A stretch of DNA of 64,000 nucleotides from Thermoanaerobaculia bacterium (GCA_963746875.1 CAVVDA010000006.1:312091-376090); one strand, 5' to 3'; counted from the stretch's first letter, positions 2,273 to 16,621 are shown. Numbers and translations: made by a program. The notes: generated from the letters alone by a model not told the origin.

Positions 2273-3331
2273 ATGAAGAACATCGTTCACATCGTCGGGA
2301 CCGGGACGATCGGAGAGCCTCTCATCGGGCTCTTCACGGACTTCAAGCAGCATCTCGGCATCGACGAAGTGACATTTCACAAGCGCACGCCCATGAAGAC
2401 CGAGCGGGCGAAGGTGGCGCACCTCATGTCGCGCGGCGCGCACCTCGCGACCGAGGACGACAAGACCGCGGATTTCGAGGCCCTCGGCCACATGGTCTCC
2501 TACAGCGCGCAGGAGGCCCTCGAGCGCGCGACCGTCGTCATCGACTGCACGCCCGCCGGGAACGACAACAAGGAGGCCTACTACAAGCACCTCAAGGGCC
2601 CCCGCGGCTTCCTCGCGCAGGGCTCGGAGTTCGGCTTCGGCAAGATGTACGCGCGCGGGATCAACGATTCGGCGCTGATCCCGGGCGAGGACCGCTTCCT
2701 GCAGGTCGTCTCGTGCAACACGCACAACCTCGCGATCCTGATCAAGACGCTCGGCATGTCGGGGGACGATCTGGTGATGGACCGCGCGCAATTCGTCTGC
2801 ATGCGGCGCTCGAACGACGTCTCGCAGACGAAGGACTTCAGCCCGGCGCCGATCGTCGGAAAGCACGACGACGAGGAATTCGGAACGCATCATGCCCGGG
2901 ACGTCTTCCATCTCTACGAGACGCTCGGCCTGAAGCCCAAGGTCTTCTCGTCGGCCCTGAAGCTCAACACGCAGTACATGCACTCCGTGTGGTTCAACTT
3001 CGAGCTCACGAAGGCGATCGACAAGAAGACGGTCATCGAGCACCTGAAGGAGAACCCGCTCGTCGCGCTCACCGACAGGAAGAGCGCGAACGAAGTGTTC
3101 TCCTTCGGCCGCGACCACGGGTACTACGGCCGCATCCTCTCGCAGACCGTCATTTCGACGCCCACGCTCGCCGTCGCCGACAAGGGCCGCGAGATCGTGG
3201 GCTTCTGCTTCACGCCGCAGGACGGCAACTCGCTCCTCTCCTCGGTCGCGGGCGCCATCTGGCTCATGGACCCCACGCACGCCTCGGAGCGGATCCAGGT
3301 TCTCAAGCGGTTCGTGTTTCGGGAGATTTGA
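2273..3331 (+). CDS. NAD(P)-dependent dehydrogenase resembling archaeal-type (class II) glyceraldehyde-3-phosphate dehydrogenase
   Basis: Intact 352-aa ORF with RBS AGGAG. Motifs GTGTIG, VIDCTP, AQGSE, VVSCNTH (catalytic Cys), RRSND, THHARDV and QYMH. Confidence 0.75.
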   Translation: MKNIVHIVGTGTIGEPLIGLFTDFKQHLGIDEVTFHKRTPMKTERAKVAHLMSRGAHLATEDDKTADFEALGHMVSYSAQEALERATVVIDCTPAGNDNKEAYYKHLKGPRGFLAQGSEFGFGKMYARGINDSALIPGEDRFLQVVSCNTHNLAILIKTLGMSGDDLVMDRAQFVCMRRSNDVSQTKDFSPAPIVGKHDDEEFGTHHARDVFHLYETLGLKPKVFSSALKLNTQYMHSVWFNFELTKAIDKKTVIEHLKENPLVALTDRKSANEVFSFGRDHGYYGRILSQTVISTPTLAVADKGREIVGFCFTPQDGNSLLSSVAGAIWLMDPTHASERIQVLKRFVFREI

Positions 3332-3425
3332 GGGAAGACAGGAAATGGATCTGAGAGGACAGGAGAAGAGACTGGTCGATAAGCGGACCTGGTTCCGGCG
3401 CATGTCGCGACGTCACGAGCGATCG

Positions 3426-5215
3426 ATGAGCGATCCCTCCGTCTTACCTTCTAAGAAGATCGTTCTCTTCGAACGTTCCATTTCGATCGCGCTTTCCCTC
3501 GTGGCCGCGGCGCTCGTCGTGCACCACATGGCCGGGGATTCGGCGACGACGGACGAGCCCGTGCACATCGCCGCGGGCGTGGAGATCGTCCGGGACGGGA
3601 CGGGGCGGTGGAACCCCGAGCATCCGCCGCTCGCCAAGGCGCTCGCCGGCCTCGCCCTCGCGGGTCTCGACCTCCAGCCTGCCGGCGACCCGATCGCGAA
3701 TTCCTCCCACGCCGGCCTCCTTCTGAGGTTCCTGCACGAAAACCGCACGCCCGGCGAAACGATCCTCTTTCGCGCGCGGCTGCCGTTCGTCGCTCTTTTT
3801 CTCGCCCTGCTCTTCGCCGTGCGGCGGCGAGGCCGGACGCCGCTTCGGCGCGGCCGCGGGCGGCGTGGCACTGGCGTTCGCCGCCCTGGATCCGAACCTC
3901 ATCGCGCATGCCGGCGTCGTCCACACGGACCTCGCCGTCGCTCTCTTCCTCGTCCTGTCTCTCGGCCCCCTCGCACGCATCCCGAACGCGGCCGACCACC
4001 TCGCCCCGATCGCGCTCGGCGTGCTCTGGGGCCTTGCGTTCCTTTCCAAGTACAGTGCGCCGCTGCTCGTGCTCGTGACTCTGCCTCTCATGTTCGCCGG
4101 GTCAAGAGGGATCGGGGATAAATTGCTTAGAAAGGAAAGACAGCCGTCCGCTGACTCCTCTCAACTACGGGCAGGTCTCCCCGGCGGCGACGGCGCCCAT
4201 TCGGCCGCCCATGCAGTTGCTCGCGTGGGCCGGCGTCTCCTGCTATCTACTTTCATAGCATTTCTCGTGGTTCTCTTCGGATTCTTTCTCGCCTATCGAA
4301 ACCAATCAGGCTTCTGATCGGGAGGCGCTCGCCCGAATCGGTTGCTCTTGAAGGGACATTCTCCGGCTCGCCGCCGATTTCGCGATCGGAGCAGGTCGGA
4401 TCTTCCCTCCGCTCGGCCAGGTCGCGACGGGCGTGTCTTCTGTCGCGCTTCAAAACCGGGTCGGCGCGGGCCCGACGTATTTCCTGGGACGCGTCGCCGA
4501 GGGAGGGTCGCCCTGGTACTTCCCCGTGGCATTCCTCGTCAAGGTCTCCCTCGGCCTCCTCGCCGGAGCGGCGCTTGGGGCCTTCTCCCCCGGCGGACGT
4601 CGCTTCGGCCTCGTCGTCGGTGGGGCGCTCGTCGCGTTCTTCGTCCTCTCCGCCGCCTCGGCGTACAACATCGGCGTGAGACATCTCCTCTTCGCCTTTC
4701 CTCTTCTCGCGATCCTCGCGGCTTCGTCCACGCCCCCGGACTCGCGCCCAACGGGTCGGGCGCTTCTCCTCGTGAGTTTTCTAATCGTGGAGGCGATAGA
4801 GGTCCTCGCCGTCCACCCGCACGAGCTCGCGTTCTTCAACGCGGCGGCCGGCGGATCCTCGGGCGGGCGGCGTTTCCTCGTGGACAGCAACCTCGACTGG
4901 GGCCAAGACCTCGCGCGCCTTTCGGCCGCGGCGCCCGCCTATTCCTCCGGTCCGCTCCCGGCGATCGTGTTCGGAGGCGATCTCCCCCGCCGGTATCCCG
5001 GGCTCCGGCCTCTCGCGCCAGGCGACGAAGACCGCCCCGGCGCAGTGATCGCGATCGGAGAGACGCCACTGGCCCTCGGGCCCGAGCTCCTCGCCGCCAG
5101 GGGTTCCGCCAGGGACGCGGAGCGGCTCGCCGGGCTCAGGCGGGCGCTCGGCGGCCGGGGAAGGCGGATCGGAACGATCGGCGGCTCGATCGGAATCTGG
5201 CGGCTGGCCCCATAG
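3426..5215 (+). CDS. GT-C fold membrane glycosyltransferase (ArnT/PMT, GT39/GT83-like), with indels
   Basis: DSATTDEPVH, NPEHPPLAK, HTDL, SKYSA, YNIGVRHLL and DSNLDWGQDL plus many hydrophobic helices across ORFs 3345-4121, 3865-4317 and 4433-5215. Confidence 0.8.
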
Positions 5216-5321
5216 GGCTTGCGAAGCCTGCCGGCACACCCCTGACTCGGTGTCTTCTCCGCCTGATGCTTGACTCGGAGGCCGGGGAGTGGCAGCTTGC
5301 TCCACAGCAGAGGAGCCTCCC

Positions 5322-5777
5322 ATGCGTTCAAGAGCGCGTCGCCTGCCTTTGATTCCTCTCGCCCTCCTCGCCACGATCGTTCCGCTCGCCCTCGGCTGTG
5401 GGAACTCCGACTCCATCACGGGTCCTTCCATGGTCGCCGCTCCGGCCAGCATCGACGGCGCGTGGAGCGGGAGCTTCACGTCCAGCGATTCGGCCGGATG
5501 CGGCAGCTCTTCCGCCACCGCTGTCTTCCGGCAGGAAGGTGCGACCGTCACGGGCGATGTTTCCACCTCGACCTGCGGCGTGACCGGCTACTTCAAGGGC
5601 ACCGTCCAGGGCAGCCAGGTCACCGGGGCCGTTTCGATGGCCGGTTGCCTCGGCGGCGCCGCCTCGGGCACCGTCAGCGGCTCAAGGCTCGTCCTCTCGA
5701 TCGGCGACCTTACCAAGCCCCTCGTCGCCGGCGACAGGACGATCATGTACGGCGGCATCGTCACCTTCCACCGCTGA
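5322..5777 (+). CDS. Hypothetical lipoprotein (Gly/Ser/Thr-rich, beta-rich)
   Basis: RBS AGGAG, ATG 5322, basic N-terminus, hydrophobic stretch, lipobox-like LALGC. Confidence 0.7.
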   Translation: MRSRARRLPLIPLALLATIVPLALGCGNSDSITGPSMVAAPASIDGAWSGSFTSSDSAGCGSSSATAVFRQEGATVTGDVSTSTCGVTGYFKGTVQGSQVTGAVSMAGCLGGAASGTVSGSRLVLSIGDLTKPLVAGDRTIMYGGIVTFHR

Positions 5778-5839
5778 GCGGCTCGCCGGGAGTGTCTTCG
5801 GGCGCGCGGCGCTCGCATGCGCTCCGCCGCAGAGCGGTG

Positions 5840-6367
5840 TCAGAAGGCGGTGCCGGACTTCGAGTAGCTGCCGTGTCCCCCGCCAAACAGCGCCAGCTCG
5901 AGCGAGTGAGAAAAAACCCCGCGCAGCCTCTTGCGCGGGCGCCAGACACCTTTGCGGCCCTGCGAGACGTCCGATGCGGCGAGAAAGAAGGCGAAGCACG
6001 CGCAAGTGGGCCGCCAGTCAAACGCGCAGAGCTTGAAGACATGGCCGGCACGTGCAGGGTCGCGGGATACATGGACCGGGAGGAACTGGCGCGCCTGAAG
6101 CGAGGCGCTGGCCCCGCCAATCATGCGCGAGCCGAGAGTGACGAGAAACTGCACCGACGTCCGCTCGTGGTTGAGTGGGTGGAGGTGGAGAATGACGGGC
6201 AAACGCGAAGGCTCGGCGACTTCGGCCTTGCCCCAGAACACCGTGGTTCCGGCCCGGACCAACGCGAGGGCGGCAAATGGTTCGTCGGCCTCGACGTGAC
6301 CGCGCCAGCCGGGATTCATGCCCGCTACCGGCGTGCCGGTGAAACGCGCGGAGAGCGACCTGATCAT
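5840..6367 (-). CDS. Hypothetical protein, possibly the last gene of the signalling operon
   Basis: 175-codon open frame whose ATG overlaps the stop of the upstream REC gene (ATGA). Third positions are mostly G/C. No confident family. Confidence 0.35.
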   Translation of the reverse strand: MIRSLSARFTGTPVAGMNPGWRGHVEADEPFAALALVRAGTTVFWGKAEVAEPSRLPVILHLHPLNHERTSVQFLVTLGSRMIGGASASLQARQFLPVHVSRDPARAGHVFKLCAFDWRPTCACFAFFLAASDVSQGRKGVWRPRKRLRGVFSHSLELALFGGGHGSYSKSGTAF

Positions 6368-6829
6368 GAGCTCCTCAGCATCGTCTCGAGGGCCTGCGAG
6401 ATCGACGCCCCGTCCTCGAGCCCGGAGAGCCGGGGCACCCGCCGCCTCAGAGCCTGGAGCCGCTGCGGCTCGACCGCGAAGTCGTACGCGAGAACGACGG
6501 GCACGCCCTCGAGCATCGGGGCGAGCGCGTCGAGGATGTAGAAACCCTGGTGCGTCGCGAGATGGCGCACGGCTCGGACCCGGTCCCCGCCGAAGCGGGC
6601 CACCAGAGCGTTCCGCGTCTCCCGCGAGAGAGGCCTCCGGAGTCCGGTCGAAGACGACGTCGAGGAAGACGGCGTCGGGCCGCTCCGCCGCGAGAGCCGC
6701 GCGGGCCGACTCGAGGTCCCTCGCCCGCACGAACACGGCGTCGAGCCCCCGCACGGCCGCGAGGCGCTCGAAGCCGTCCACGTATTCCGAACCGTCCTCC
6801 ACGACGAGGACGCTGCGGGGCGCGGTCAC
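6364..6829 (-). CDS. Stand-alone atypical response-regulator receiver protein (one indel)
   Basis: SVLVVED, PDAVFLD, QGFYILDAL and VPVVL. GTG start overlaps the kinase stop (GTGA at 6826-6829). Confidence 0.75.
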
Positions 6830-9338
6830 GCGGCTTCCTCCACGGCCGCGAACTCCACCGCGACCCCCTTCGTGAACTCCCCCGTTCCCGGCGTCACGTC
6901 CACGAGTCCGTCCCACCGCCGGACCAGGTCGGCGACGACGCCCGAGGCCGCGCTCGGCGGCCCTCCCCCGGATCATCTCCGCCGTGAGGAGGCGCGGGAT
7001 CTCCGTCGAAGAGCACGAAGCGCGCGAGGGCCTGGCCGGTCACCGGGTCGCGGCGCTCCTCGGCGAGGAGCGCGAGGCGCGGAGCCTGCAGAGCGTTCGC
7101 GAACAGATTCCGCCAGAGAGTGGCCCAGTCCCCCTCCGGGACACGGACGCGCACGCACCGTCCGTCGGCCGCGCCTTCGAACAGTCCCAGGCCCGCGAGC
7201 GGCGGCGCCGCCGCGTCGTGTTCGCGCGCGACGCTCGCGAGGAGCGACGCGAGCCGCTCGAAGCGGGCTTCCGTGGAACCCGCCGCATCGAGCGTCGCCG
7301 TCAGGAGCTGCGCGGTCCGCGGATTGAGCGCCGCGGCGGCCTGGCGAAGCGCCCGGCTCAGTCTTCTCGAGCCGGCGCGGCCGGAGCGAGCCTGTTTCCG
7401 CGAGACGCGCGAGATCGCGCGCCGCCCCTTCCAGGATCTCGAGCGACTTCGAGACCCGGGAAGAGCAGCGGGTCCTTGAATCGCAGGTTCAGGCGCGCGC
7501 CACGGCGGCGTCCCAACGACTCGAGATCGGAAAGAGCCCTCCGCGCCTCGGCGACGAGCCCGGGCGCGCCCGGCGTCCCGTAGAGGCGCTCGACGAGGAG
7601 CGGCGCGGCCCCGGCGAGCCCTTCGTCCGAGCTCAGGCGCTCCACCGCCTCGCCGAGCAGCAGGCCGCCGTGCTTGAACGCCTCGTGAGAGAGGCGACCC
7701 GCCACCGACCTCGCGTCGCGCGTCGCGCCGGGATCGCGTTTCAGCCACTCCTCGAGCGTGAGGCCGATGCGCCTCCTCGCCCACGAGAAGCCGCCCGCCA
7801 GAAGGGCGCACAAGGCGGCGCCGAGCGCGGCGCCTCGCAGCGTGCCCTGCCGCCGCTCTTCGCGCTCGAGGGCCGCCTGCGCCTCCTCGGCATGGACGCC
7901 TCCGGCCGCTTCCGCGAGATAGCGCCGATAAAGCGCCGCGGCGCGCGACGAGCGCCCGTTCGCCCGACGCGATTCGGGCGAGCGCGAAGAGCGCCTCGCG
8001 AGAGCCGGCCTGGTCCGCGTGCTCCCAGGCGATCTCCGCGTCGCGCCCCCGGCCCGCCTGCCGGCCGAGAAGCTCGGCCAGCCGCTCCCATGCGGCCGCG
8101 CGCGACGGGTCGATGGCGACGGCGCGCTTCAGGACCTCCTCGGCGCCGGCCAGGTCGTCGCGCCGCTCGCGCAGCGCGGCGCTGAGCTCGAGGGCCGGCA
8201 CGAAGCGCGGGTCGAGACGTTCGGCCTCGGCGAGCTCGGATTCGGCCGCGTCCCAGTCGCGCGCGTCGGACCGGCCCGCGTAGACCTGCGCGAGTCGGAA
8301 CGCTCCCACCGCGGGAGACGCCGGATCCGACCCGAGAGCCACCGGCTCGGGGCCCGAGGTCCGCGCGAGGCGCGCGCGCAGCCGCTCGCGGAACGAGGCG
8401 GCTTCCGCCCTTTCCCCGGGCGAAGCGAGCGCCCACCACCCGTCGAGCCGCTCGAGGGCGCGCGCGGGGTCTCCCCATGCCGCCCACCGGTTCGCCGCCT
8501 CGCGCTGGAGGCGCGGCAGGTCGGGCCGGAGCGCCACGGCACGGTCGAGAAGCGCGAGCGACTCCTCCTTCGCCGGGCGGTCGGGCTCGTTCCAGAGCAG
8601 ATTCGAGAGGGCGACGAGGGCCTCGAAGCCGTCCGGCTCCGCGGCGAGAGCCGTCCGGTACGCCGCCGCCGCCTCGGCGGTCCGCCCGTTGCGCTCCTCG
8701 ACGCTCCCGAGCGCGAGCGCGGCCTCGGAGTATCCGGGCGAGAGCCGGAGTGCCTTTCGGAACGCCTCGCGCGCGGGCTCGTTCGCCCCGCGCCTCAGCG
8801 CCGTCTTGCCGTCGGCGAAGGCGCGGCGGGCGTCCGCGGAAGGCGGCGCGAATCCGGGTCGAGCCGGGAGCTTTCGCGCCTCGTCCTCGGCGTCGAGCCG
8901 CCGGATGTTCTCGCCGATCCAGTCCGCGCCCGACCGCGCGCGCCTCTGCAGCGCGGCCAGGACGTGCCCGTACTGGAGGATCGCGCCGCGCCGGTCCCCG
9001 CGCGCTTCGGCCTGCCGCGCGAGCACGAGGCGTTCGGCCGGCGAGAGGAGCTCCGGGGCCTCCTTCGCCGCGATCTCGAGGAGGCGCGCCTCGTCGTCCG
9101 TGTCTCCCGCGGCGGCCGCGAGGTCCGCGCCGCGCAAGGCGAGAGCGAGCGACGGAGACGCGAGGCGCGCGCGCCGGACGAAATCCCGCGCCTCGGCGAG
9201 CTCCTCCGGGGCCGGCGTTCCCCCCGCGACGAGATGCTCGGCCTGGCTCGCGAGCGCCGCGGGATCCTCGGCGCAGTCCGTCGCCGGCCTCGGAGTCGCG
9301 GCGAGGAGGACCGGCAGGATCGCCTGCAGCATTCTCAC
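6826..9338 (-). CDS. Membrane sensor histidine kinase-like protein with an extracytoplasmic TPR region, with indels
   Basis: Signal-like N-terminus, TPR repeats (ALRLSPGYSEAALALG, ALAAEPDGFEALVALS), TM segment AALGAALCALLAGGFSW, H-box-like LSHEAFKH, N-box WRNLFANA, FDGDP and RGLGVVADLV. Confidence 0.7.
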
Positions 9339-10985
9339 GCCTCGCGGCGCGCCGAGAGGCCGAGCTTGTTGAAGCGCAGACGCACGGCCCGCTCGTCGGC
9401 CGCCGATCCCGTCATCCGCTCGGCCATGCGCGCGAAGTCGCCTTCACACTCGCGAAAGACCTGCCGGAAGGCGGAGCGCTCGAGCTCGCGCCGGAAGCTC
9501 TCGACGCTGTCCACCTTCGGACGCGGAAGCGCGAAGACCTCGCCGGCCGAAGGAACGTCTTCCTGGCGGGCCTCGGCCAGCAGGTCGAAGAGCAGCCGCG
9601 GATCCATCGTGAAGACGACGCGCCCCGCCCGGTCCTTCGCGGCGGCGGTCCGGCCGTACAGCGTGGCCGCGAGGAGATCGGCGAGGACCATCGCGAATTG
9701 CCGCACGTTTCCGGGCCAGGGATGGCGGGCGATCGCCTGCCAGCCCTTGCGCGGAAGGGCGAAGACGACGGGAGCCCGGCTGCGCGCGACTTCGTCCTCG
9801 CCGCGCGCGAGCTCGAACGCATCTTCCCGGTCCGGCTCCGCTCCGCCGGCCGCGCGCACCTGCGCCGCGATCTCCTGGCGGTGTACCGGGTCCGAGAAGA
9901 ACGCCGCGGCGAAGTCGTCGGCGAGGTCCTCGAGGTCCTCTCGCCGCGCCGAAAGGGGCGGCAGCTCGAGCGCGAGCGCGGGGTTGAGGCGCATGAGGAG
10001 GTCCGCGCGGAAGAGTCCGTCCGCGACGCGCTTCCTGAGGTCCGCGTTCGACGCGGCCACGATGCGCGCCGTGTGCGGCAGGACGGCCGTCGCCCCCACG
10101 CGCCGCACGACGCCGTCGTTCAGCGCCGTCAGGAGGGCCTTCTGGGCATCGGAGGAGAGGTTCTCGATCTCGTCGAGAAAGAGCGTCCCGCCCGCGGCGG
10201 CCTCGAAGACCCCCGGGCGATCCGCCACCGATCCCGTGTACGAGCCGCGCACCGAGCCGAAGAGCGCCGCCTGCAGAAGCGTCTCCGGCACCGTCGCGCA
10301 GTCGAAGGAGACGAGCGGCCCCTTGCGGGACGAGAGCGGGTGGATCACCTCTTTCACGAGGAAGTTCTTGCCCGAGCCCGTCGGCCCCGTGAGGAGGAGC
10401 GGCAGCGGCGTGGGCGCGAGGGAGGCGATCCGGCGGCGCAGGTCCCTCATCGCGGCGCCGCGGCCCCAGAAGAACCTGCCCGTCGAGAGAGGCGACTCGC
10501 GCTCGTCGAGCACGCGGCGCACGAGGCGCACGAGCCCCTCGCCCGTCGCCTCGTCCTCGCCCACCGTGTACGTGAACGCGTCGGCGCGAAGACGGCGGGC
10601 CTCGTCCTCGAACGGGATCTCCTCGTGCGCGGTCGTGAGCACGACGGGCAGGTCCGTCTCGCGGTGCCGCAGGCGCTCGAGGATGAAGAGGCCCTGCCGG
10701 TCGCGCCGGTCGCGCCGGTCGCGCTTCCCCGCCGGCGTCTCGCCGAGCGGGCGGCGGTCCGGCAGGAGATCCTCGTCGGAAATGTCGAACCTCAGGTCGA
10801 GGACGACGAGATCCGGAATCCGTCCCGCGCGCGCGAGCGCCGCCTCGGCCTCGGGCCAGCTTCCCGCCCAGGCCTTCTCCGCCGAAGGCCCGAGCAGGAC
10901 CAGGTCGGGCGCGTGGCGCCGCAGGAAATTCCGCGGTCTTCGGCTGATCGTCGACGACGAGGACGCGCGGGCCGCGGGCCGTCAT
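9335..10985 (-). CDS. Sigma-54 enhancer-binding response regulator (REC-AAA+-HTH), one indel near the N-terminus
   Basis: RVLVVDD, PDLVVLD, Walker A GPTGSGKN, GAFTGA variant GSYTGS, Walker B LFLDEI, FRADLLMRL, WPGNVRQ and a Fis-like C-terminus. Confidence 0.9.
10697..10723. repeat. 9-bp tandem repeat (CCGGTCGCG x3) encoding RDR x3 in the receiver insertion
   Basis: Read directly from the sequence. In frame. Confidence 0.8.
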
Positions 10986-11491
10986 CGGCGCGCTCCGAGA
11001 GGCCGCACGATCTCCGGGCCGTCGTCGAGGGCGACTCGGCGGTAGAACGCCGTGCAGGCGCGAGACGCTTCGAGGCAGGCCTCGTCGAGGGAGAGAAGAG
11101 AAGATTCGGAGAGAGGGGAGATCTTGCTTTCGGAAGCCGAAGAAGGAGAAGAAGAAGATTCTTTGAATGGAAGAAGGCGGGAGGCGAGGCGGCCCACGAC
11201 CGCCATGGCCCGCTCGACCGCCTCCAGATCCGGATCGCCGCTCGCAAACAACGGCCCCTCTTCCCTCTTCCACTCGAAGAAGACTTTCCAGAACGTCACG
11301 GCCTGCTCCGCCACCTCTCGTGCGCGGCAGCAGGTCCGCTCGCGAGCCGCGCGCGCAGTTCGTCGGGGTTCGTTTCCCGCTCTTCCGGCGCGCTCCAGCG
11401 CAGCGCCTTGCCCGACGTCGTGCTTCAGGCGAAAGGCTGCGGTTTTTCTCCGCAGCCTCCGGTCTTCATGGTCTTCCGGCGTGCTCGTCAT
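10982..11491 (-). CDS. Small helical protein with a HisKA H-box-like motif (RLKHDVGK), probable indels
   Basis: 169-aa ORF whose stop overlaps the activator ATG. Removing one base after HDVG gives KHDVGKALRWSAP. Confidence 0.6.
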   Translation of the reverse strand: MTSTPEDHEDRRLRRKTAAFRLKHDVGQGAALERAGRAGNEPRRTARAARERTCCRAREVAEQAVTFWKVFFEWKREEGPLFASGDPDLEAVERAMAVVGRLASRLLPFKESSSSPSSASESKISPLSESSLLSLDEACLEASRACTAFYRRVALDDGPEIVRPLGARR

Positions 11492-11501
11492 CCGCGGCCG
11501 A

Positions 11502-13034
11502 TTATCCGCTCAGCCGCTCGGTCATCAGCTGAAGCCGGTTCCAGTCCACGACGCCGGGAGCCGAGTACGGGCGATCGACGAGGACCGGCCGGCGCGCGCC
11601 TTCCGTGTCGCAGAGGACGTGCCGTTTCGGAATCCTCACGCCGTCGGGCGTGAACCCCTCGCAGACGACGAGGAGGAGGCGGCCGTCCGGCGAGAAACCG
11701 AGCGACGTCGTGTAGCGATCCTCTCCCGGCCCCGGCCCGCTCGAGGGACCCGGAGCGCCGACAGGCAGGAGCTCCGGCTCGGCGAGACGCGGCCGGTTCG
11801 ATGACGCGCGCCCGGGCGAGGTCGAGAAGCCGCGTCCTGCGGCGGCCGGCGGTGGGCGCCTCGTCCCACACGAGCTTCTTGCCCGTCGCGTCGAAGGCGA
11901 GACTCGCCGGGTCCGCGCCGACGACGGCGTACGGCTGGATGGCGTCCTTGCCGTCCGGCCGCGTCACGACGAGCAGCGTGACGCCGCCCCGCGCGACGAA
12001 CTGGGCGCGCAGCCCGGAAGCGGAGACGACGGGCTTGTCCGAGACGACCTTGCGCGGAAGCGACTTCGTGAGACGCGCCACGAGGCGGTCGGCCGCGCGG
12101 CGGCGCGCCGCGTCCGGCGTCGTGGCCGTGACCTCGGACGCCGACTCGATCGCGCCGTCGCGGTAAGCCGGCGAAGGCCTCGACGTCGCCGCGGCGGGCG
12201 GCGCCCTCCGCGAGCCACGACAGGAGGCGCGCGCGCTCGAGGAGAAACGGCACGCGGCGCGGGGACGCCGGGAACGAGGCGAGAAACTCGGCCAGGTCCC
12301 GTTCGCGGCGCGAGGCGGCGGCCGCGTCGCCGGGCGCCTGCGGATCCACGACCGGCCCGCAGGCGGTCAGGAGGCGGAGGCGCGCGCGCTCGGCGCGTTT
12401 CCGCGGGAGGAGCGAGGGCGATCAGCGCGGCGGTAGGCCGCGCCGTCGTACCGGTACCCGCTCGCCGTCGCCCTTCGGGACGAGCGTCACGCCCCAGACC
12501 CGCGCGAGGACGACCGAGGCGGGCTCTCGCCCGTCCTTCGCCCGGCCGCGCCGACGCGGCGAGCAGCTCGCCGGCGCGGCCGAGGAGCTCCCACGCCTCG
12601 ACGCGCGAGGCGTCGCGCCGCGTGACTTCGTGGAGGTAGGCGGCCGCGAGGACGGGCCGGTCGTTCGCCTCGAGGAGGAGGCGCGCGTTGCCCACGAGCC
12701 GGTCGATCGGTTCTGCGCGGGTCGTCGAGGACGAAGAACGCCGAGGAGTCGGCCCAGCCGCGCGCCGCGGGAACCGGGCCCCAGGCCGGCGCCGAGACGA
12801 GGACGCGGCTGCCGTTGCGCTCCAGGAGCCGGGCCTGGAGCGCTGGCCGCGACGCGCCCGCCGCGCCCGAAGCCGTCCGCCAGGCGTCTCGCCGAGGACG
12901 ACCGAGCGGAGCGCGACGAGGTCCTTCCCCTCCGGCTCCTCGGCGCGGGCGATCGCCGCGAGGAGGAGGGGCGAGGCGAGGAGGCCGAGGAACGCGAGGA
13001 GCCTGAGGATCGGGGCGACGTAGCGGCGGAACAT
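11502..13034 (-). CDS. Exported hypothetical protein (helical/TPR-like middle, TolB/PD40-like beta C-terminus), with indels
   Basis: RBS GGGAGG, signal peptide MFRRYVAPILRLLAFLGLLASPLLLAAIARA. Stitched frames give SLAFDATGKKLVW and LGFSPDGRLLLV. TAA at 11502-11504. Confidence 0.65.
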
Positions 13035-13081
13035 GTGAACCTCCCGGCGCGGGGTTCGTGTCCGCGCCTGGCCATGGGCCA

Positions 13082-13098
13082 TTTCACGCTTCGTGCCG
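13082..13098 (-). promoter_or_regulatory. Candidate sigma-54 -24/-12 element for the leftward operon
   Basis: Minus strand CGGCACGAAGCGTGAAA: good -24 GGCACG, -12 reads TGA instead of TGC. About 50 bp from ATG 13034. Confidence 0.4.
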
Positions 13099-13141
13099 CG
13101 CGGTCGCGCTCGTCCCGAGCGTTTCCGGCGATGTCCAGTAT

Positions 13142-13171
13142 TATTCGATACGGAGAATATTTCTTCGAATA
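13142..13171. promoter_or_regulatory. AT-rich palindrome TATTCGA-N16-TCGAATA, candidate activator binding site
   Basis: Perfect 7-bp arms at 13142-13148 and 13165-13171 with an inner AGAA-TAT-TTCT. Lies midway between the divergent genes. Confidence 0.5.
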
Positions 13172-13221
13172 GGAAGATGGGCGGAGAGGCGGCGGAGCGC
13201 GCAGGACGGCGTTTCGCCATC

Positions 13222-13238
13222 TGGCACAGGTCGTGGAT
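13222..13238 (+). promoter_or_regulatory. Candidate sigma-54 -24/-12 element for the SPFH operon
   Basis: TGGCACAGGTCGTGGAT: perfect -24 TGGCAC, -12 reads TGG instead of TGC. About 45 bp from ATG 13282. Confidence 0.4.
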
Positions 13239-13281
13239 CTCGTCGTGACGCGCGGCGCTTCCCGCCGCGAAGGAGACGACG

Positions 13282-14556
13282 ATGAACGACGACCTCCCCG
13301 ACCCGCCCGAATCACTCCCGGTCCTGACGACCCGTCCGGGCCTCCGCACGACGACTCAGCGCCCTTCGCGGCGACGGCGACTGGAGGCAACACCTCCCCG
13401 TCCGCAAGGTCCTCCTCGGCAGCGACGCTCGTCGTCGCCCTGTGGTCCGGCGCTCGTCTGGGTCGAGCGCAGCTTCAGGTCCGTCGCGCCCGGCGAGGCC
13501 GGCCTCGTCGTCGGCAAGTTCACCGGCTCCGATGCGGATCGTGTCGCCGGGCAGCCACTTCCTCCCGCGGCTCCCTGTACGTCCTCACGCGCGTCCGGGT
13601 ATCAGACCAGCTCCTCTCGGGCGCCCGCTGCCTCGTTCACCGTCCCGACGCGGGACGGCTTCGCGGTGGGGCTCGTCATCCAGGCGCGCTGGGCTCTCGA
13701 TCGCCGGCAGCTCCTCGCGCGGTGGGCAGGCCTGCCCGCCGACCCGGGGCGCCGAAGTCGTCGGCCCGGTTCTCGCGTCCTCCTTCCGCGCCATCGCTCC
13801 CGAGTACGACGCCCCGTCGCTTCTCGCGAGCAAGCGGGAGGAGCTCGCGGCACGCGCCGCGAAGCAGGCCGGCGAGCGCCTCGCCGAGGCCGGGATCGTC
13901 CTCAAGGACGTGCTCGTCGAGCGACCTCAAACTGCCGATCGAGTTCGAGCGCGGCCGCCTCGCGCTCCTCGAGCAGTCGCAGCTCGTCGAGCGCACCGAG
14001 GCGAACCTCCGCTTCAAGAAGCAGGAGGTCGAGCAGCAGCGGCTCGAGGCCGAGGCGCGCAAGGCCCGCTCCGACAAGGAGGCCGAGGCGGCCGCGAATC
14101 GCCGCCTCATCGAGGCGAAGGCCGAGTCCGACGCGATGGCGTTCATCCTGCCGCTGAAGGAGAAGGGGATCAAGCAGCAGGAGCTCGAGGCCGAAGCGCA
14201 GAAGGCACGCAAGCTGAAGGACGCCGCAGTCGCAGGCCGAGACGATGAAGATCCAGTCCGAGGCCGAGGCCTCGCGGCGCCGGACGATGTCCGAGGCCGA
14301 GGCGTACGCGATTCGCCAGACGTCTCTCGCGCAGTTCGAGAACCTCAAGCGCGAGGTCGAGCTGATCGAGAGGAACCCGACCTGGGTCAACAAGACGCTC
14401 GCCGAGAAGCTCGGCGACAAGGTGCAGGTCATCGTGATGCCGAACCTCACGGCCGACATCCTCGGCAGAACGGGCAAGCGCGTCGCGAGCGGGCAGCCGG
14501 CCTCGCGTCGCGGCGGACTGAGGCAGAGAGAGAGAGAAGAGAAGAGACTTCTATGA
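13282..14556 (+). CDS. SPFH/band-7/prohibitin-domain membrane protein with coiled-coil tail, with indels
   Basis: RBS AAGGAG, N-terminal TM segment, FRSVAPGEAGLVV, VPTRDG..VGL, KREELA..L..AGIVLKDVLV, and an E/A/K-rich coiled coil (LEAEARKA, IEAKAESDA, LEAEAQKA). Confidence 0.8.
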
Positions 14557-15655
14557 AGGTGAAGAGGGTGCCGCGGACGCGGCCTGCGCAGATCGCCATC
14601 GCGCCGCCGCCGTCGCACGCGGCCTCCACCCTCGTCGGCAGAGCCCCCGCCCTTCTCCCCCTCTTCGCCGACTCCCTCTTCGCCGACGGCCCCGAGGGCA
14701 GCCGGAACCTCGTCGTCGTCGGGCGCTACCTCGCGGCCGACGACACGCGCCTCCCGCTCGCGGCGGCGCTCCTCGCGCGGGGCGCGGCCCGCCTCCGGAC
14801 GGAGGGGACGCCCGATCCCCGGGCCGAGGTTCTCCTCGGCGAGACGGCCGAGCGCCTCTCGGCGCGCCCGGGCGCCCCGCCCGACGGGCGTCGCGTTCGC
14901 GGCGCCGCTCGACCCGAAGCTCGGGCGGAAGGTTCGCGTCTACGACGGCGAGGCTTTCCGCCGCGTTCTCGGCGACCTCCCCGCCGACGCCGAGGGGCCG
15001 CTGCGTCGAGCTCCGCGAGCGCGCGCTCGCGGGAGCGCTCCGCGCGCGTTTCCCGCTGCCGGGCCAGACGCTCGATCGTCGAAGTGGGAGGAGACCGTGG
15101 CCTGGCTGACGTTCGCCGAGTCGCGTCCGGACGCCGACGCGTCGCCGAAGGCGTCTCGCGCCGCCTCGAGCGCGCGGCGCCCGACCTCGCGCGCCTCCTC
15201 CTCGCGGCCGGGAAAACGCGACGACCTCGACGGCTCTCGACCGCCGACTCACGGATGCGAGCGCGCGCCTCGAGGCGCTCGAGCCGGATCCCGCGAAGGC
15301 CCGTCGCCTGCGCGACGCGGCGCGCGCGGTCCGGCGCCTGCGCGGCACCGGCGCGTGCGCCCTTTCCCCAGGAGGTCTGGCTCACGCACGGGCCCGGCGC
15401 CCGCGGTCGTCAGGATCGAGGGCGAGATCGGCGAACCTCGCGCTCGTCGTCGGGTCGGGCCCCGGGCGCACCAGGAGCGCGCCGGATCTCGCGACGCGTT
15501 CTCCACGCGCCCGTCCTGCCGGTGCCCGGGACTCCCTCGCGCTCACGACCGACCGGCGCGCCGTGACGTGGCTGGAGGCCGAAACCCCGACCCGGCTCGC
15601 GCGCGTCGCGTTCGCGCTCGACGGGTCGGGGCCCGTCGCTCGTCACAGATCGTGA
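14553..15655 (+). CDS. Hypothetical protein, apparent paralogue of 11502-13034, with indels
   Basis: ATG overlaps the SPFH stop (ATGA). Shares LAAAxL, LLGxxxExL, YDGxAxRxxL and SLAx6WxEA-like blocks with 11502-13034. Confidence 0.55.
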
Positions 15656-16621
15656 TATTCGAGCCGGATCTTCGTCTCCGCGAAAGTCTTCCCGTCCACC
15701 TCGACGTACGGGTAGATGAAGAAGTTCAGCGGGCCGTCCTTCTGGGGCGGGGAGAGCGTGAGGTCGCGGCCGGTCGTGATGTCGAAGCGGTCCGGGTCGA
15801 GGTTGCCGAAGAGGTACGCCTTCTTCACGGGCTCTTTCGTCTTCGCGGCGTCCGACGCGTCGACCGGCACCCAGCCCTGCCCGGGCGCCCAGAACTCGGC
15901 CCAGCAGTGGTATCCGGGAACGGAGCCTTCCTTCTCGGGCTTCAGCGGGAAGCCGATGGAGAAGCGCACCGGGATCCCCTCGGCGCGCGCGAGCGCCATG
16001 AACGCCGAGTGGAAATCCGTGCAGTTCCCCTTCTTCACGTCGCAGAACCGCTCCGAGTCGCCCTTGCCCCAGCCCGGCGCCGTCTTGTCGTACGTGCCGT
16101 TGTCGACGAGATAGTCGTAGAAGGCCCGCGCCTTCGAGACGGCGTCGGTCTTTCCCGCCGACAGCGTGCGGGCGAGCTCCTTCACGCGGGGCGTGAGCGG
16201 CACGAGCCGGTTCGCCTTCAGCAGCTCCGCCGCGCCGGGAGGCTCGGCCCCCTTCGCGCTGCCCGGAGCGGGCGCCACGGCTTCGCGCCTCGTGACGCGA
16301 TACGTGGCCTTGACCTCGAGGTCCTTCCCGAGCTGCTCGGGCTTGTCGAGGACGAAGTGCGCGAGCCGGTTTCCCGCCGAGTCCGTTTCGAGCGTGAACG
16401 GGGCGGGCGCCTGGACCTTCACGTCGGCGACCGATCTGATACGGGCCGTCCGACGGCAGCGGGATCCAGACCTCCGCCTTCTTCGCCGTGGCCGGAAGAG
16501 CCGCGATCGTCCCGACGTACGTGGCCTCGAAGGACCTCACCGCGGGCGCCTTCGTGCCGGCTACGACGAGGGCCCCCGAGAAGCGACGAGAAGGCACGGC
16601 GGCGGCACAGAGCTTCTTCAT
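15643..16621 (-). CDS. Transglutaminase-like domain protein (probably exported), one or more indels
   Basis: Catalytic motifs GNCTDFH, HCWAEF and WVPVD. N-terminal VWIPLP in the adjacent frame. Confidence 0.85.

What the first reader, a model, noticed from the sequence alone, without database searches (positions are those of the whole stretch)
6364..15655. Candidate undescribed envelope-stress signalling system: atypical sigma-54 phosphorelay divergent from an SPFH module
Seen: five minus-strand genes in order exported protein, H-box protein, REC-sigma54 activator, TPR-TM-histidine kinase, stand-alone REC. The last four are joined by ATGA/GTGA overlaps. They face an SPFH protein and a paralogue of the exported protein across a 247-bp spacer with sigma54-like elements. 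Known: sigma54 activators divergent from membrane-protective effectors are the logic of PspF/PspA, and SPFH proteins form membrane scaffolds. Inference: a self-contained circuit in which a periplasmic TPR sensor, perhaps with the exported protein as partner, relays through non-canonical parts to induce an SPFH complex. I do not recognise this combination as a named system.
Basis: partly seen in the sequence, partly recalled or inferred. Interest (0 to 1): 0.85.

Follow-up and report, generated by a model that had tools for sequence, protein, structure and literature searches.

The report
Four-gene sigma-54 phosphorelay beside SPFH operon
An uncultured soil acidobacterium carries a four-gene signalling cassette, also found in other bacterial phyla and mostly invisible to standard annotation, that probably passes a phosphate through four proteins to switch on a neighbouring membrane-scaffold operon.

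Summary
Gene order, the ATGA/GTGA/GTGA overlaps, the 247-bp spacer and two outward-facing sigma54-like elements are all in the window. The window copy carries about 55 single-base insertions, most likely assembly errors: the genome is 6 contigs and 54% complete.

Clean relatives (Thermoanaerobaculia, Acidobacteriota) give this gene set:
- a four-helix-bundle protein with an invariant His (no Pfam)
- a REC-AAA+-HTH sigma54 activator
- a periplasmic-TPR membrane kinase whose C-terminus folds as a histidine-kinase ATP-binding domain (Z 14.2), though Pfam and PDB sequence searches miss it
- a divergent single REC

A complex model puts the bundle's His against the REC's acceptor-Asp loop (ipSAE 0.86, best control 0.00). 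This fits a His-Asp-His-Asp relay like LuxU-LuxO or Spo0.

These four genes form a cassette kept in the same order in Myxococcota and other MAGs (29 of 42 loci). The SPFH and lipoprotein pair is not part of that conserved unit. It is adjacent in 21 of 30 acidobacterial loci, has been lost in about half of the window's genus, and is adjacent in 0 of 42 loci elsewhere.

Verdict: a new variant of a known kind of system. The wiring to SPFH is lineage-specific and inferred.

The parts
6364..6829 (-). Single-domain REC-like protein (about 154-164 aa in relatives). The GTG start overlaps the kinase stop (GTGA). One or two frameshifting indels near 6605-6611.
   Evidence: tblastn to the clean orthologue in two frames. 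Overlap confirmed. All 43 of 43 family members match Pfam Response_reg at E<=1, best 2.5e-06, below the gathering score. In a PDB profile search 12 of 13 hits are response regulators, best E 0.0068, with Asp57 aligned to the acceptor Asp. Invariant across phyla: E11 D12 G13 E15 Y16 D57 F60 D61 R62.
6826..9338 (-). Sensor kinase of about 835 aa: signal peptide, periplasmic TPR domain, one TM helix, a cytoplasmic helical region with invariant H-E-x-x-K-H, then a GHKL ATP-binding (CA) domain. Five single-base insertions in the window copy (near 7958, 7462, 7365, 6998, 6943).
   Evidence: TPR Pfam hits only; no HisKA or HATPase_c. AF2 model of the last 300 aa has pLDDT 88.6. Foldseek gives 224 PDB hits at E<=0.001, and the listed rows (the top 50) are nearly all histidine kinases or kinase-like proteins such as LvrB and DivL. 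VIA Z 14.2, rmsd 3.0 A over 134 residues to the MprB CA domain. N-box Asn, G1 Asp and G2 Gly residues are invariant in the broad family. Indels.
9335..10985 (-). Sigma54-dependent activator (549 aa): atypical REC with a charged insertion after the acceptor Asp, an AAA+ domain and a C-terminal HTH. One single-base insertion near 10929.
   Evidence: Pfam Sigma54_activat E 2.4e-47, and 1.4e-47 in the clean orthologue. Alignment shows D12 D13 D63 T117, Walker A GPTGSGK, Walker B DE, and the GAFTGA loop (GSYTGS in the window's genus). No NCBIfam equivalog reaches its cut-off.
10982..11491 (-). 'H-box' protein (135-175 aa in relatives). A four/five-helix bundle with invariant His24 and Lys28 in the motif LKHD(L/V)GK on helix 1. 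Candidate His-phosphotransfer protein. Its TGA stop overlaps the activator ATG. Three to five indels in the window copy.
   Evidence: Window translation. AF2 model pLDDT 80.5. Only generic helical-bundle matches. No Pfam family, with 0 of 43 members matching Hpt. 267 homologues, all named 'hypothetical protein' where a name is given. Complex model with the REC protein: ipSAE 0.86 against 0.00 for the best control, with His24 touching REC 58-59.
11502..13035 (-). 'Exported' protein (507 aa as a single ORF in clean relatives): signal peptide, SH3b-like N-terminal part, helical middle, beta-rich C-terminus. It is the full-length paralogue of the SPFH-linked lipoprotein. Nine single-base insertions split it in the window.
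   Evidence: One 507-aa ORF in G003. tblastn to the window falls in three frames. Indels. hhalign to the SPFH-linked family: probability 94.6%, E 7.2e-08. Found only in the window's genus-level group.
13036..13282 (.). 247-bp divergent control region. It holds a sigma54-like element on the minus strand (13084-13097, GGCACGAAGCGTGA, toward 'exported'), an AT-rich block with imperfect TTCGAA-type inverted repeats (about 13138-13180; candidate activator site), and a sigma54-like element on the plus strand (13223-13236, GGCACAGGTCGTGG, toward SPFH).
   Evidence: Sequence. Two of the 3 pattern matches in the whole window lie here. The element is kept 55-62 nt upstream of SPFH in 7 of 8 loci of the genus and 41-69 nt upstream in 7 of 7 loci of the second family. 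It is also upstream of 'exported' in 15 of 16 loci, and upstream of the H-box gene in 0 of 7 loci of the second family. Repeats in relatives: 2 x 12-nt direct repeat in L017 and a 14-nt inverted repeat in L027. The tool reported no such repeat in the window spacer itself.
13283..14556 (+). SPFH/Band-7 protein (about 404-437 aa in relatives): N-terminal TM helix, SPFH domain, long charged coiled-coil tail. Twelve to fourteen single-base indels in the window copy.
   Evidence: Pfam Band_7 E 1.7e-12, 48.2 bits against a 23.6 cut-off, in the clean orthologue. Closest solved relative is HflK, E 2e-07. Indels.
14630..15719 (+). Shortened paralogue (about 345 aa in G003) of the exported protein, downstream of SPFH. 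In the second family the same position holds a 488-aa lipoprotein with an SH3b-like N-terminus. Seventeen single-base insertions in the window copy. The start coordinate is approximate.
   Evidence: blastn of the G003 and G017 coding sequences to window 14661-15719. Alignment A6 shows the genus form lacks both the N-terminal and C-terminal parts. NCBIfam SH3_and_anchor E 0.0015, below its cut-off. Atlas lead 'SH3 domain-containing protein', score 0.94.

Best explanation
The minus-strand genes encode a four-protein phosphorelay. The membrane kinase senses something in the periplasm through its TPR domain. It autophosphorylates on the conserved His about 25 residues after its TM helix. It then passes the phosphate to the translationally coupled single REC protein (Asp57). 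The small four-helix 'H-box' protein takes the phosphate on His24 and hands it to the REC domain (Asp63) of the sigma54 activator encoded right after it.

The phosphorylated activator binds the AT-rich repeats in the 247-bp spacer. From there it opens two divergent sigma54-type promoters. One drives the SPFH protein with its lipoprotein partner. In this genus the other drives a full-length lipoprotein paralogue that heads the signalling operon itself, which would give positive feedback.

Shown here:
- gene order, overlaps and spacer
- activator domains
- kinase ATP-binding fold
- REC likeness
- conservation of the cassette across phyla
- conserved promoter-like elements
- a modelled His-to-Asp-loop interface

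Inferred:
- every phosphotransfer step and their order
- DNA binding
- sigma54 dependence
- the signal
- the function of SPFH and the lipoprotein

The single-base insertions in the window copy are read as assembly errors.
For: - Cassette conservation: H-box, activator, kinase and REC lie in the same order in all 22 full-length Thermoanaerobaculia loci of the 25 fetched and compared; L032, L034 and L035 are partial. The 4-bp start/stop overlaps were read at candidate starts in four relatives and in the window. The same order holds in 29 of 42 loci from Myxococcota and other MAGs, including the cultured Plesiocystis pacifica SIR-1 and Enhygromyxa salina.
- Kinase: CA-domain fold Z 14.2, rmsd 3.0 A, 134 residues. 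Foldseek gives 224 hits at E<=0.001, and the listed rows are nearly all histidine kinases or kinase-like proteins. Invariant H551 E552 K555 H556, N743, N747, D777, G796, G798. Two of 10 distant relatives give sub-threshold Pfam HATPase_c matches (E 4.6e-05 and 2.6e-04).
- REC: 43 of 43 members match Response_reg at E<=1. Asp57 is aligned to the acceptor Asp.
- H-box: His24 and Lys28 are invariant in 43 sequences from several phyla.
- Complex model of REC with the H-box protein: ipSAE 0.86 (runs 0.87, 0.86, 0.85); best of 3 controls 0.00. That mark was reached by 58 of 80 solved complexes and 2 of 110 mismatched pairs. The runs share at least 76% of contacts and partner pLDDT is at least 77. 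His24 touches REC 58-59, and the other contacts are the loops around the REC active site (15, 116-120, 139-145).
- Activator: Sigma54_activat E 1.4e-47, GAFTGA loop, Walker motifs, acidic pocket D12 D13 D63.
- rpoN is present in the genome.
- Promoter-like elements are conserved in position in two families whose spacers otherwise differ. Two of the 3 matches in 64 kb lie in the spacer.
- Precedent: hybrid kinases to the HPt protein LuxU to the sigma54 activator LuxO (PMC5394107, passages of the Introduction read).
Against: - The H-box protein has no sequence or specific fold match to HPt, Spo0B or DHp domains. None of 43 members match Pfam Hpt. PDB and Atlas give only generic bundles, with one Hpt cluster at TM 0.50/0.45, under the bar. 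hhalign to the kinase's own His region gives probability 1.8%.
- The complex score may reflect likeness to solved HPt-REC complexes. It was run with my own alignments, so the calibration holds only roughly.
- Both REC domains lack the usual Lys. The single REC has Ala or Ser at the Thr/Ser position.
- The -12 part of the promoter-like element reads KTGR, not the usual TTGC.
- Genome-wide counts of such patterns show no clear enrichment over spacing controls. GGCAC-N5-GTGA occurs 19 times against 66 for N4 and 23 for N6.
- No repeat was reported by the tool in the window's own spacer.
- SPFH linkage is lineage-specific. It is absent from 9 of 30 acidobacterial loci and from all 42 loci elsewhere. 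Five genomes of the genus keep the cassette with no copy of the SPFH-linked paralogue found with that query. SPFH therefore cannot be the cassette's only or general output.
- No canonical sigma54 promoter is conserved upstream of the cassette in the other phyla: 3 scattered matches in 30 loci.
Confidence: 0.5

Rival explanations
1. An ordinary two-component pair with two accessories. The kinase phosphorylates the activator's REC directly. The single REC is a phosphate sink or competitor. The H-box protein is not a phosphocarrier. It is a helical partner that docks on the REC active site as a phosphatase or connector, in the manner of CheZ or Spo0E-type proteins (recalled), or as an anti-activator.
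For: - The H-box protein matches no HPt family.
- A docked helical bundle at the REC active site is also what an aspartyl-phosphate phosphatase would show.
- Kinase and activator genes are adjacent and overlap.
- The activator keeps the full acidic pocket and Thr.
Against: - The one residue invariant in all 43 H-box proteins besides the start Met and Lys28 is a His. It is modelled within reach of the acceptor loop.
- Known REC phosphatases use Gln, Asn or Asp rather than His (recalled).
- The pairing of genes, H-box with activator and kinase with REC, fits a relay.
Confidence: 0.25
2. The cassette and the SPFH operon are neighbours without regulatory connection. The promoter-like elements are served by another of the genome's many sigma54 activators, or are not sigma54 promoters at all. 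The cassette's real targets lie elsewhere, as they must in the other phyla.
For: - SPFH is adjacent in 0 of 42 loci outside Acidobacteriota and missing in 9 of 30 inside.
- The genome holds 27 matches to the activator family.
- The -12 element is non-canonical, and genome-wide counts show no enrichment.
Against: - In the second family the divergent arrangement is kept in 13 of 13 loci with enough flank.
- The element keeps its distance from the start codons in spacers that otherwise differ.
- Where SPFH was deleted, the AT-rich block and the 'exported' element remain directly upstream of the signalling operon (loci L014, L018-L025).
Confidence: 0.15
3. The window's copy is a decaying, non-functional locus (true pseudogenes) and not an assembly artefact.
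For: - Indel density is uneven: 14 in 1215 nt of SPFH and 17 in 1065 nt of the paralogue, against 1 in 1650 nt of the activator.
- The SPFH pair is lost in about half of the genus.
- Only 12 of the 36 insertion sites checked lie in homopolymer runs of 3 or more.
Against: - Nearly all changes are single-base insertions.
- Gap density is as high or higher in unrelated flanks: 45 gaps in 3336 columns and 61 in 2150.
- The 6-contig, 4.1-Mb genome scores only 53.8% complete, against 88-99% for most relatives. This points to genome-wide consensus errors.
Confidence: 0.08

Closest known systems
Vibrio quorum-sensing phosphorelay: hybrid kinases LuxN/LuxQ/CqsS to LuxU (HPt) to LuxO (sigma54 activator)
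   Same: A His-Asp-His-Asp relay that ends on a REC-AAA+-HTH sigma54 activator, with a small all-helical phosphotransfer protein as the third step (PMC5394107, Introduction passages). That luxO and luxU are adjacent genes is recalled, not taken from a call.
   Different: - Here the first REC is a separate protein, not fused to the kinase.
- The kinase has a periplasmic TPR sensor and belongs to an unannotated family.
- The H-box protein is not a Pfam Hpt member (0 of 43).
- The activator scores 151.8 bits against the LuxO model's cut-off of 800.
- The targets are protein-coding genes, not small RNAs.
Bacillus sporulation phosphorelay KinA - Spo0F - Spo0B - Spo0A, and Myxococcus RedCDEF (both recalled, no call)
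   Same: Four separate proteins: kinase, single-domain REC, helical His-phosphotransferase, terminal response regulator.
   Different: - The output regulator here is a sigma54 activator.
- All four genes sit in one overlapping operon.
- No sequence relation to Spo0B or Spo0F was found in the PDB profile searches.
Phage-shock system PspF / pspABCDE (arrangement recalled)
   Same: A sigma54 activator gene lies divergent from a membrane-protecting effector operon, with a shared control region.
   Different: - PspF has no REC and is controlled by PspA binding, not by phosphorylation.
- The effector here is an SPFH/Band-7 protein, not PspA.
- The activator scores 161.8 bits against the PspF model's cut-off of 443.55.
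HflK/HflC SPFH proteins
   Same: HflK is the closest solved relative of the SPFH protein (E 2e-07, residues 32-289). Both have an N-terminal TM helix followed by an SPFH domain and a coiled coil.
   Different: - There is a single SPFH gene, paired with an SH3b-like lipoprotein instead of an HflC partner.
- No FtsH link was examined.
PEP-CTERM regulators PrsK / PrsR / PrsT (NCBIfam TIGR02915, TIGR02917; PMC1569441 seen in a search listing only)
   Same: A TPR protein, a sensor kinase and a sigma54 response regulator work together.
   Different: All scores are far below the cut-offs. PrsT gives 61.1 bits against 312.2, over TPR repeats only. PrsR gives 149.9 bits against 502.6. Here the TPR domain is fused to the kinase.

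Membership tests
Sensor histidine kinase (DHp + GHKL catalytic domain) | GHKL/Bergerat ATP-binding fold at the C-terminus | tested here: met
   The AF2 model (pLDDT 88.6), residues 149-298, aligns to HK CA domains at Z 14.2, rmsd 3.0 A, 134 residues (6blk_A). 357 chains reach Z>=8. Foldseek gives 224 hits at E<=0.001.
Sensor histidine kinase (DHp + GHKL catalytic domain) | N-box Asn, G1 Asp and G2 Gly-x-Gly residues | tested here: met
   N743, N747, D777, G796 and G798 are invariant in 13 sequences spanning Acidobacteriota and distant relatives.
Sensor histidine kinase (DHp + GHKL catalytic domain) | Recognised by Pfam HisKA/HATPase_c models above threshold | tested here: not met
   No HisKA or HATPase_c hit at E<=0.05 in the clean orthologue. 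A PDB profile search gives no kinase. Two of 10 distant relatives give HATPase_c below the gathering score.
Sensor histidine kinase (DHp + GHKL catalytic domain) | Phospho-accepting His on the first cytoplasmic helix; autophosphorylation | not testable with these tools
   An invariant H-E-x-x-K-H lies on the long first helix about 25 residues after the TM segment. Phosphorylation was not tested.
HPt / His-phosphotransfer protein (Pfam PF01627 Hpt; Spo0B-like) | Sequence match to Hpt or a DHp family | tested here: not met
   None of 43 members match Hpt or any kinase family at E<=1. No PDB sequence match.
HPt / His-phosphotransfer protein (Pfam PF01627 Hpt; Spo0B-like) | Helical-bundle fold with a conserved His on a helix | tested here: inconclusive
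   A four/five-helix bundle, with His24 invariant on helix 1. Fold searches return only generic bundles, best Z 9.7, below what is informative for helical proteins. An Hpt cluster appears at TM 0.50/0.45, under the bar.
HPt / His-phosphotransfer protein (Pfam PF01627 Hpt; Spo0B-like) | Docks its His at the acceptor Asp of a REC domain | tested here: met
   Model only. ipSAE 0.86, best control 0.00; the mark was reached by 58 of 80 solved and 2 of 110 mismatched pairs. His24 touches REC 58-59. It may rest on likeness to solved complexes.
Receiver (REC) domain, Pfam PF00072 | Sequence match and acceptor Asp at the end of strand 3, with an acidic pair after strand 1 | tested here: met
   All 43 of 43 members match Response_reg at E<=1, best 2.5e-06, all below the gathering score of 30.2 bits for the first member. 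E11, D12 and D57 are invariant. Asp57 is aligned to the acceptor in PDB response regulators.
Receiver (REC) domain, Pfam PF00072 | Conserved Thr/Ser and Lys of the switch | tested here: not met
   Position 114 is Ala or Ser, and no conserved Lys was found in the last strand region. The activator's REC has Thr117 but also no evident Lys.
Bacterial enhancer-binding protein (sigma54 activator) | AAA+ sigma54-interaction domain with Walker A/B and the GAFTGA loop | tested here: met
   PF00158 E 1.4e-47, 162 bits against a cut-off of 20.2. GPTGSGK, DE, and GAFTGA in the second family (GSYTGS in the window's genus).
Sigma54 promoter (-24 GG / -12 GC) | TGGCAC-N5-TTGCW spacing and both dinucleotides | tested here: inconclusive
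   The GGCAC and the N5 spacing are kept in 29 of 31 upstream regions. The -12 part reads KTGR/TTGA, not TTGC. No transcript start data.
SPFH / Band 7 | Pfam Band_7 above the gathering score | tested here: met
   48.2 bits against 23.6, E 1.7e-12, in the clean orthologue. HflK is the closest solved chain.
Named sigma54 systems (PspF, LuxO, NtrC, PrsR, RtcR and others) | NCBIfam equivalog score above the curated cut-off | tested here: not met
   The best hit is RtcR at 204.4 bits against a cut-off of 650. PspF 161.8 against 443.55. LuxO 151.8 against 800. PrsR 149.9 against 502.6.

The most novel reading that the evidence does not exclude
The H-box protein founds a new family of His-phosphotransfer proteins. 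The four genes would then form an unannotated phosphorelay shared by Acidobacteriota, Myxococcota and other lineages. Three of its four parts escape Pfam. In Thermoanaerobaculia this relay has been wired, through sigma54 promoters with an unusual -12 element, to an SPFH scaffold and SH3-type lipoprotein. That would amount to a Psp-like envelope response built on an SPFH protein instead of PspA.
Probability: 0.35. Interest if true: 0.65.

Novelty: new variant of a known kind. Interest (0 to 1): 0.5.

Why it matters
Multi-step phosphorelays are thought to be rarer and harder to spot than simple two-component pairs, because the His-phosphotransfer step is poorly conserved. This cassette, conserved across phyla, has a kinase, a REC and a putative phosphotransfer protein that standard domain models miss. 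It would therefore be absent from signalling censuses of soil Acidobacteriota and marine Myxococcota.

The cassette also occurs in cultured strains (Plesiocystis pacifica SIR-1, Enhygromyxa salina), so the biochemistry can be tested.

The link to SPFH would be one of few cases in which the regulation of a bacterial SPFH scaffold is readable from the genome. It holds only in one uncultured class and is not proven.

Tried and rejected
- Pfam on the window's own ORFs gave almost nothing, because frameshifts break the genes. I switched to clean orthologues from the same genus.
- PDB sequence-profile searches found no kinase for the kinase C-terminus and nothing for the H-box protein.
- hhalign between the H-box protein and the kinase's own His region found no relation (probability 1.8%). 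I therefore dropped the idea that the two are paralogous His modules.
- The motif HDxGK recalled the HD-phosphohydrolase signature (recalled). No HD-domain protein appeared in the Foldseek or VIA lists shown, and no upstream His is conserved. I did not pursue this further. It is not excluded.
- Genome-wide counts of sigma54-like patterns in the window's genome showed no usable enrichment. They say nothing either way about the -12 variant.
- A sigma70-type scan of the spacer found nothing.
- A scan for canonical sigma54 promoters within 2.5 kb upstream of the cassette in 30 loci of other phyla gave 3 scattered matches and nothing conserved.
- Flanking genes in Plesiocystis and one high-GC MAG showed no shared candidate target: an aminotransferase, a Ser/Thr kinase, a thioesterase, a TonB plug and unknowns.
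- The third GGCAC-N5-KTGR match in the window (45880-45893) lies inside a 511-aa ORF. I took it as chance.
- No sequencing-run or read-laying step was tried.
- Supplementary files of papers were not opened. None bears on a claim here.
- Papers: PMC5394107, passages of the Introduction and other sections by term search. All other papers, search listings and abstract starts only.
- The statement that no paper links SPFH with a sigma54 activator or describes this cassette rests only on the searches.
- Genomes G019 and G024 are flagged unpublished. They enter only the tally (activator-family matches) and support no claim here.

Full report
**What is in the window.** The window is G000:C6:312091-376090. 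The genome has 6 contigs, 4.1 Mb, about 70% G+C, and scores only 53.8% complete. GC3 frame plots show the coding frame jumping repeatedly inside what should be single genes. Pfam on the window's own ORFs recognises little more than TPR repeats, a sigma54-interaction domain (E 2.4e-47) and a weak Band_7 hit.

A same-genus genome, G003, aligns to window 6368-14493 at 88% identity and has every gene intact. Against G003 and a second relative (G017), the window carries almost only single-base insertions: SPFH 12-14, SPFH-linked paralogue 17, 'exported' 9, H-box 3-5, activator 1, kinase 5, REC 1-2. Gap density is as high in unrelated flanks. I therefore read these as consensus errors of the assembly. 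Real decay cannot be excluded: only 12 of the 36 insertion sites checked are in homopolymers, and the density is uneven.

**Check of the observation.**
- Minus strand: 'exported' protein (about 11502-13035; 507 aa as one ORF in G003), H-box protein (10982-11491), activator (9335-10985), TPR-TM kinase (6826-9338), REC-like protein (6364-6829).
- The three junctions are ATGA, GTGA and GTGA overlaps. Start candidates that overlap the upstream stop are also present in four relatives.
- The spacer 13036-13282 is 247 bp.
- The pattern GGCAC-N5-KTGR occurs 3 times in the 64-kb window (expected 1.3). Two of these sit in the spacer, facing outward.
- The protein after SPFH is a relative of the 'exported' protein. 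Profile-profile comparison gives probability 94.6%, E 7.2e-08, over 404 columns.

**What the parts are.**
- *Activator.* This is an ordinary sigma54 enhancer-binding protein in its AAA+ core. It has Walker A and B motifs and the GAFTGA loop (GSYTGS in this genus), plus a C-terminal HTH-like tail. Its REC domain keeps D12, D13, D63 and T117 but carries a long charged insertion after the acceptor Asp. No NCBIfam equivalog comes near its cut-off.
- *Kinase.* Pfam and PDB sequence searches see nothing beyond the TPR repeats. An AlphaFold model of the last 300 residues (pLDDT 88.6) matches histidine-kinase catalytic domains: Foldseek gives 224 hits at E<=0.001, and VIA gives Z 14.2, rmsd 3.0 A over 134 residues. 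The N-box Asn, G1 Asp and G2 glycines are invariant, as is an H-E-x-x-K-H motif on the first helix after the membrane. A whole-library profile search finds 416 cluster representatives. Two of 10 distant ones that I scanned give sub-threshold HATPase_c matches.
- *REC-like protein.* It is below Pfam's threshold, but all 43 of 43 family members hit Response_reg at E<=1. Twelve of 13 weak PDB profile hits are response regulators, with Asp57 in the acceptor position. It lacks the usual Lys and has Ala or Ser at the Thr/Ser position.
- *H-box protein.* It has no Pfam, NCBIfam or PDB sequence match. All 267 database relatives that carry a name are 'hypothetical protein'. It folds as a four/five-helix bundle (pLDDT 80.5) with only generic bundle look-alikes. 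Across 43 sequences from several phyla, the only invariant residues after the start Met are His24 and Lys28, in the motif LKHD(L/V)GK.
- *SPFH protein.* It passes Pfam Band_7 (E 1.7e-12) and is closest to HflK among solved chains.
- *Lipoprotein family.* In the second family the SPFH partner is a 488-aa lipoprotein with an SH3b-like start and a beta-rich end. These features are leads only.

**Distribution.**
- The kinase C-terminus is found in 28 of 301 sampled genomes of the class, in two families only.
- In 25 fetched loci, all 22 full-length loci show H-box, activator, kinase and REC together and in order; L032, L034 and L035 are partial.
- A scan of all species genomes with a motif from the kinase found 221 relatives, and the best 80 loci were kept. 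HMM scans of those 80 loci gave the following.
  - Among 38 Acidobacteriota-labelled loci, 30 have enough upstream DNA. SPFH and the lipoprotein are adjacent in 21 of them. That is 13 of 13 loci without an 'exported' gene and 8 of 17 with one.
  - Among 42 loci from Myxococcota and other MAGs, all four cassette genes are found in order in 29. These loci include Plesiocystis pacifica SIR-1, two Enhygromyxa salina strains, Polyangia, Bradymonadia, and MAGs labelled proteobacterium, Enterobacterales or Cognaticolwellia.
  - Most of the other 13 of those 42 loci are cut by contig ends or lack only the weak H-box hit.
  - SPFH and the lipoprotein are adjacent in 0 of the 42.
- Five genomes of the window's genus that lack the adjacent pair have no copy of the SPFH-linked paralogue (the query used) elsewhere. 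One, G010, keeps a 28-codon remnant at the old site.
- The conserved unit is therefore the four-gene cassette. The SPFH link is a Thermoanaerobaculia feature that is being lost within the window's own genus.

**Control region.**
- In all SPFH-bearing loci except one with a doubtful start, a GGCAC-N5-xTGx element lies upstream of the SPFH start codon (55-62 nt in the genus, 41-69 nt in the second family).
- In the window's genus the same element lies upstream of 'exported' in 15 of 16 loci.
- It is absent upstream of the H-box gene in the second family (0 of 7). There a TATCCT-like hexamer sits close to the start instead, by my reading of the sequences.
- Between the two elements lies an AT-rich block with TTCG(A/G)AG-type repeats. 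L017 has two perfect 12-nt copies 20 bp apart, and L027 has a 14-nt inverted repeat. The window's version is imperfect and was not picked up by the tool.
- Where the SPFH pair has been deleted, the block and the 'exported' element remain.
- rpoN is present.
- The -12 part is not the canonical TTGC, and genome-wide counts do not help. Sigma54 dependence is therefore likely but unproven.

**Mechanism.** The gene set is what a split His-Asp-His-Asp relay needs: kinase, single REC, small helical His protein, REC-activator. The genes pair up accordingly, H-box with activator and kinase with REC.

- ipSAE was 0.86 (runs 0.87, 0.86, 0.85). The best of 3 controls was 0.00.
- That mark was reached by 58 of 80 solved complexes and by 2 of 110 mismatched pairs.
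- The runs share at least 76% of their contacts, and partner pLDDT is at least 77.
- The lowest-error contacts put His24 on REC residues 58-59, next to Asp57. The rest of the interface is formed by the loops that ring a REC active site.

This is the geometry of a phosphotransfer complex. It may partly reflect the model's memory of solved HPt-REC pairs, and a REC phosphatase would dock the same way.

The closest described logic is hybrid kinase to LuxU to LuxO with sigma54 (PMC5394107). The four-separate-protein layout recalls the Spo0 relay (recalled). The divergent activator and membrane-effector layout recalls PspF/pspA (recalled).

My odds are as follows.
- Components as named: about 0.85.
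- A relay in the stated order: about 0.5-0.55.
- SPFH and 'exported' as direct targets in this lineage: about 0.6.

**Novelty and verdict.** No searched paper links SPFH with a sigma54 activator or describes this cassette (listings only). The kind of system is known, a multi-step relay to a sigma54 activator. Three things look new:
- a cross-phylum cassette whose kinase, REC and putative phosphotransfer protein escape domain annotation
- a probable new phosphotransfer family
- a lineage-specific link to an SPFH scaffold

I rate it a new variant of a known kind, of moderate interest.

Genomes G019 and G024 (unpublished) enter only the tally.

Noticed in passing
window 3327-6368: About 2.4 kb more DNA than the G003 orthologous locus has between the REC gene and the next shared block: 3040 bp in the window against about 630 bp in G003. 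It holds plus-strand ORFs at 4352-5212 (287 aa, membrane-like, no Pfam) and 5274-5774 (167 aa, signal-peptide-like, weak Bactofilin hit at E 0.0027).
   Followed up: partly
L013 14264-14761 (G003): In G003 a PEMT/ICMT-family methyltransferase gene (Pfam PEMT E 7.4e-13) follows the REC gene with an ATGA overlap. It is absent from the window (no tblastn hit) and was found in none of the other 24 loci compared.
   Followed up: partly
window 15643-16621 (-): A transglutaminase-like lipoprotein gene (Transglut_core E 4.1e-29) flanks the cluster. It stays next to it in the genus whether or not the SPFH pair is present. Its 3' end converges on, and may overlap, the end of the SPFH-linked paralogue.
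   Followed up: partly
L014 about 11569-11652 (G010:C1:2236068-2236151): A 28-codon remnant of the SPFH-linked paralogue (75% identity, one stop) lies between the 'exported' gene and the transglutaminase gene. It is a footprint of deletion of the SPFH pair.
   Followed up: partly
window 6364-15719: The single-base insertions are very unevenly spread: 1 in the 1650-nt activator gene against 14 in the 1215-nt SPFH gene and 17 in the 1065-nt paralogue. Only 12 of the 36 insertion sites checked are in homopolymer runs of 3 or more. This is unexplained if they are all random consensus errors.
   Followed up: partly
L091 4590-8000: In one high-GC MAG, extra ORFs sit between the activator gene and the kinase gene, so the cassette is interrupted. 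One of them has a TonB-dependent receptor Plug domain (E 1.4e-06).
   Followed up: no
L091, L096-L098, L105: Records labelled 'uncultured Enterobacterales' or 'Cognaticolwellia sp.' that carry the cassette have 62-74% G+C in the two loci measured (L091 and L098). The taxonomic labels of these MAGs look unreliable.
   Followed up: no
L013 about 7360-7390 and L016 8857-8878: A short G+C-rich hairpin lies in the predicted 5' leader of the SPFH gene, between the sigma54-like element and the ribosome-binding site. In L016 it has 8-nt arms that are 100% complementary. Its position is conserved, but not its sequence.
   Followed up: no
window 45880-45893 (+): The third match to GGCAC-N5-KTGR in the window lies inside a 511-aa ORF (45019-46554) and was taken as chance.
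   Followed up: partly
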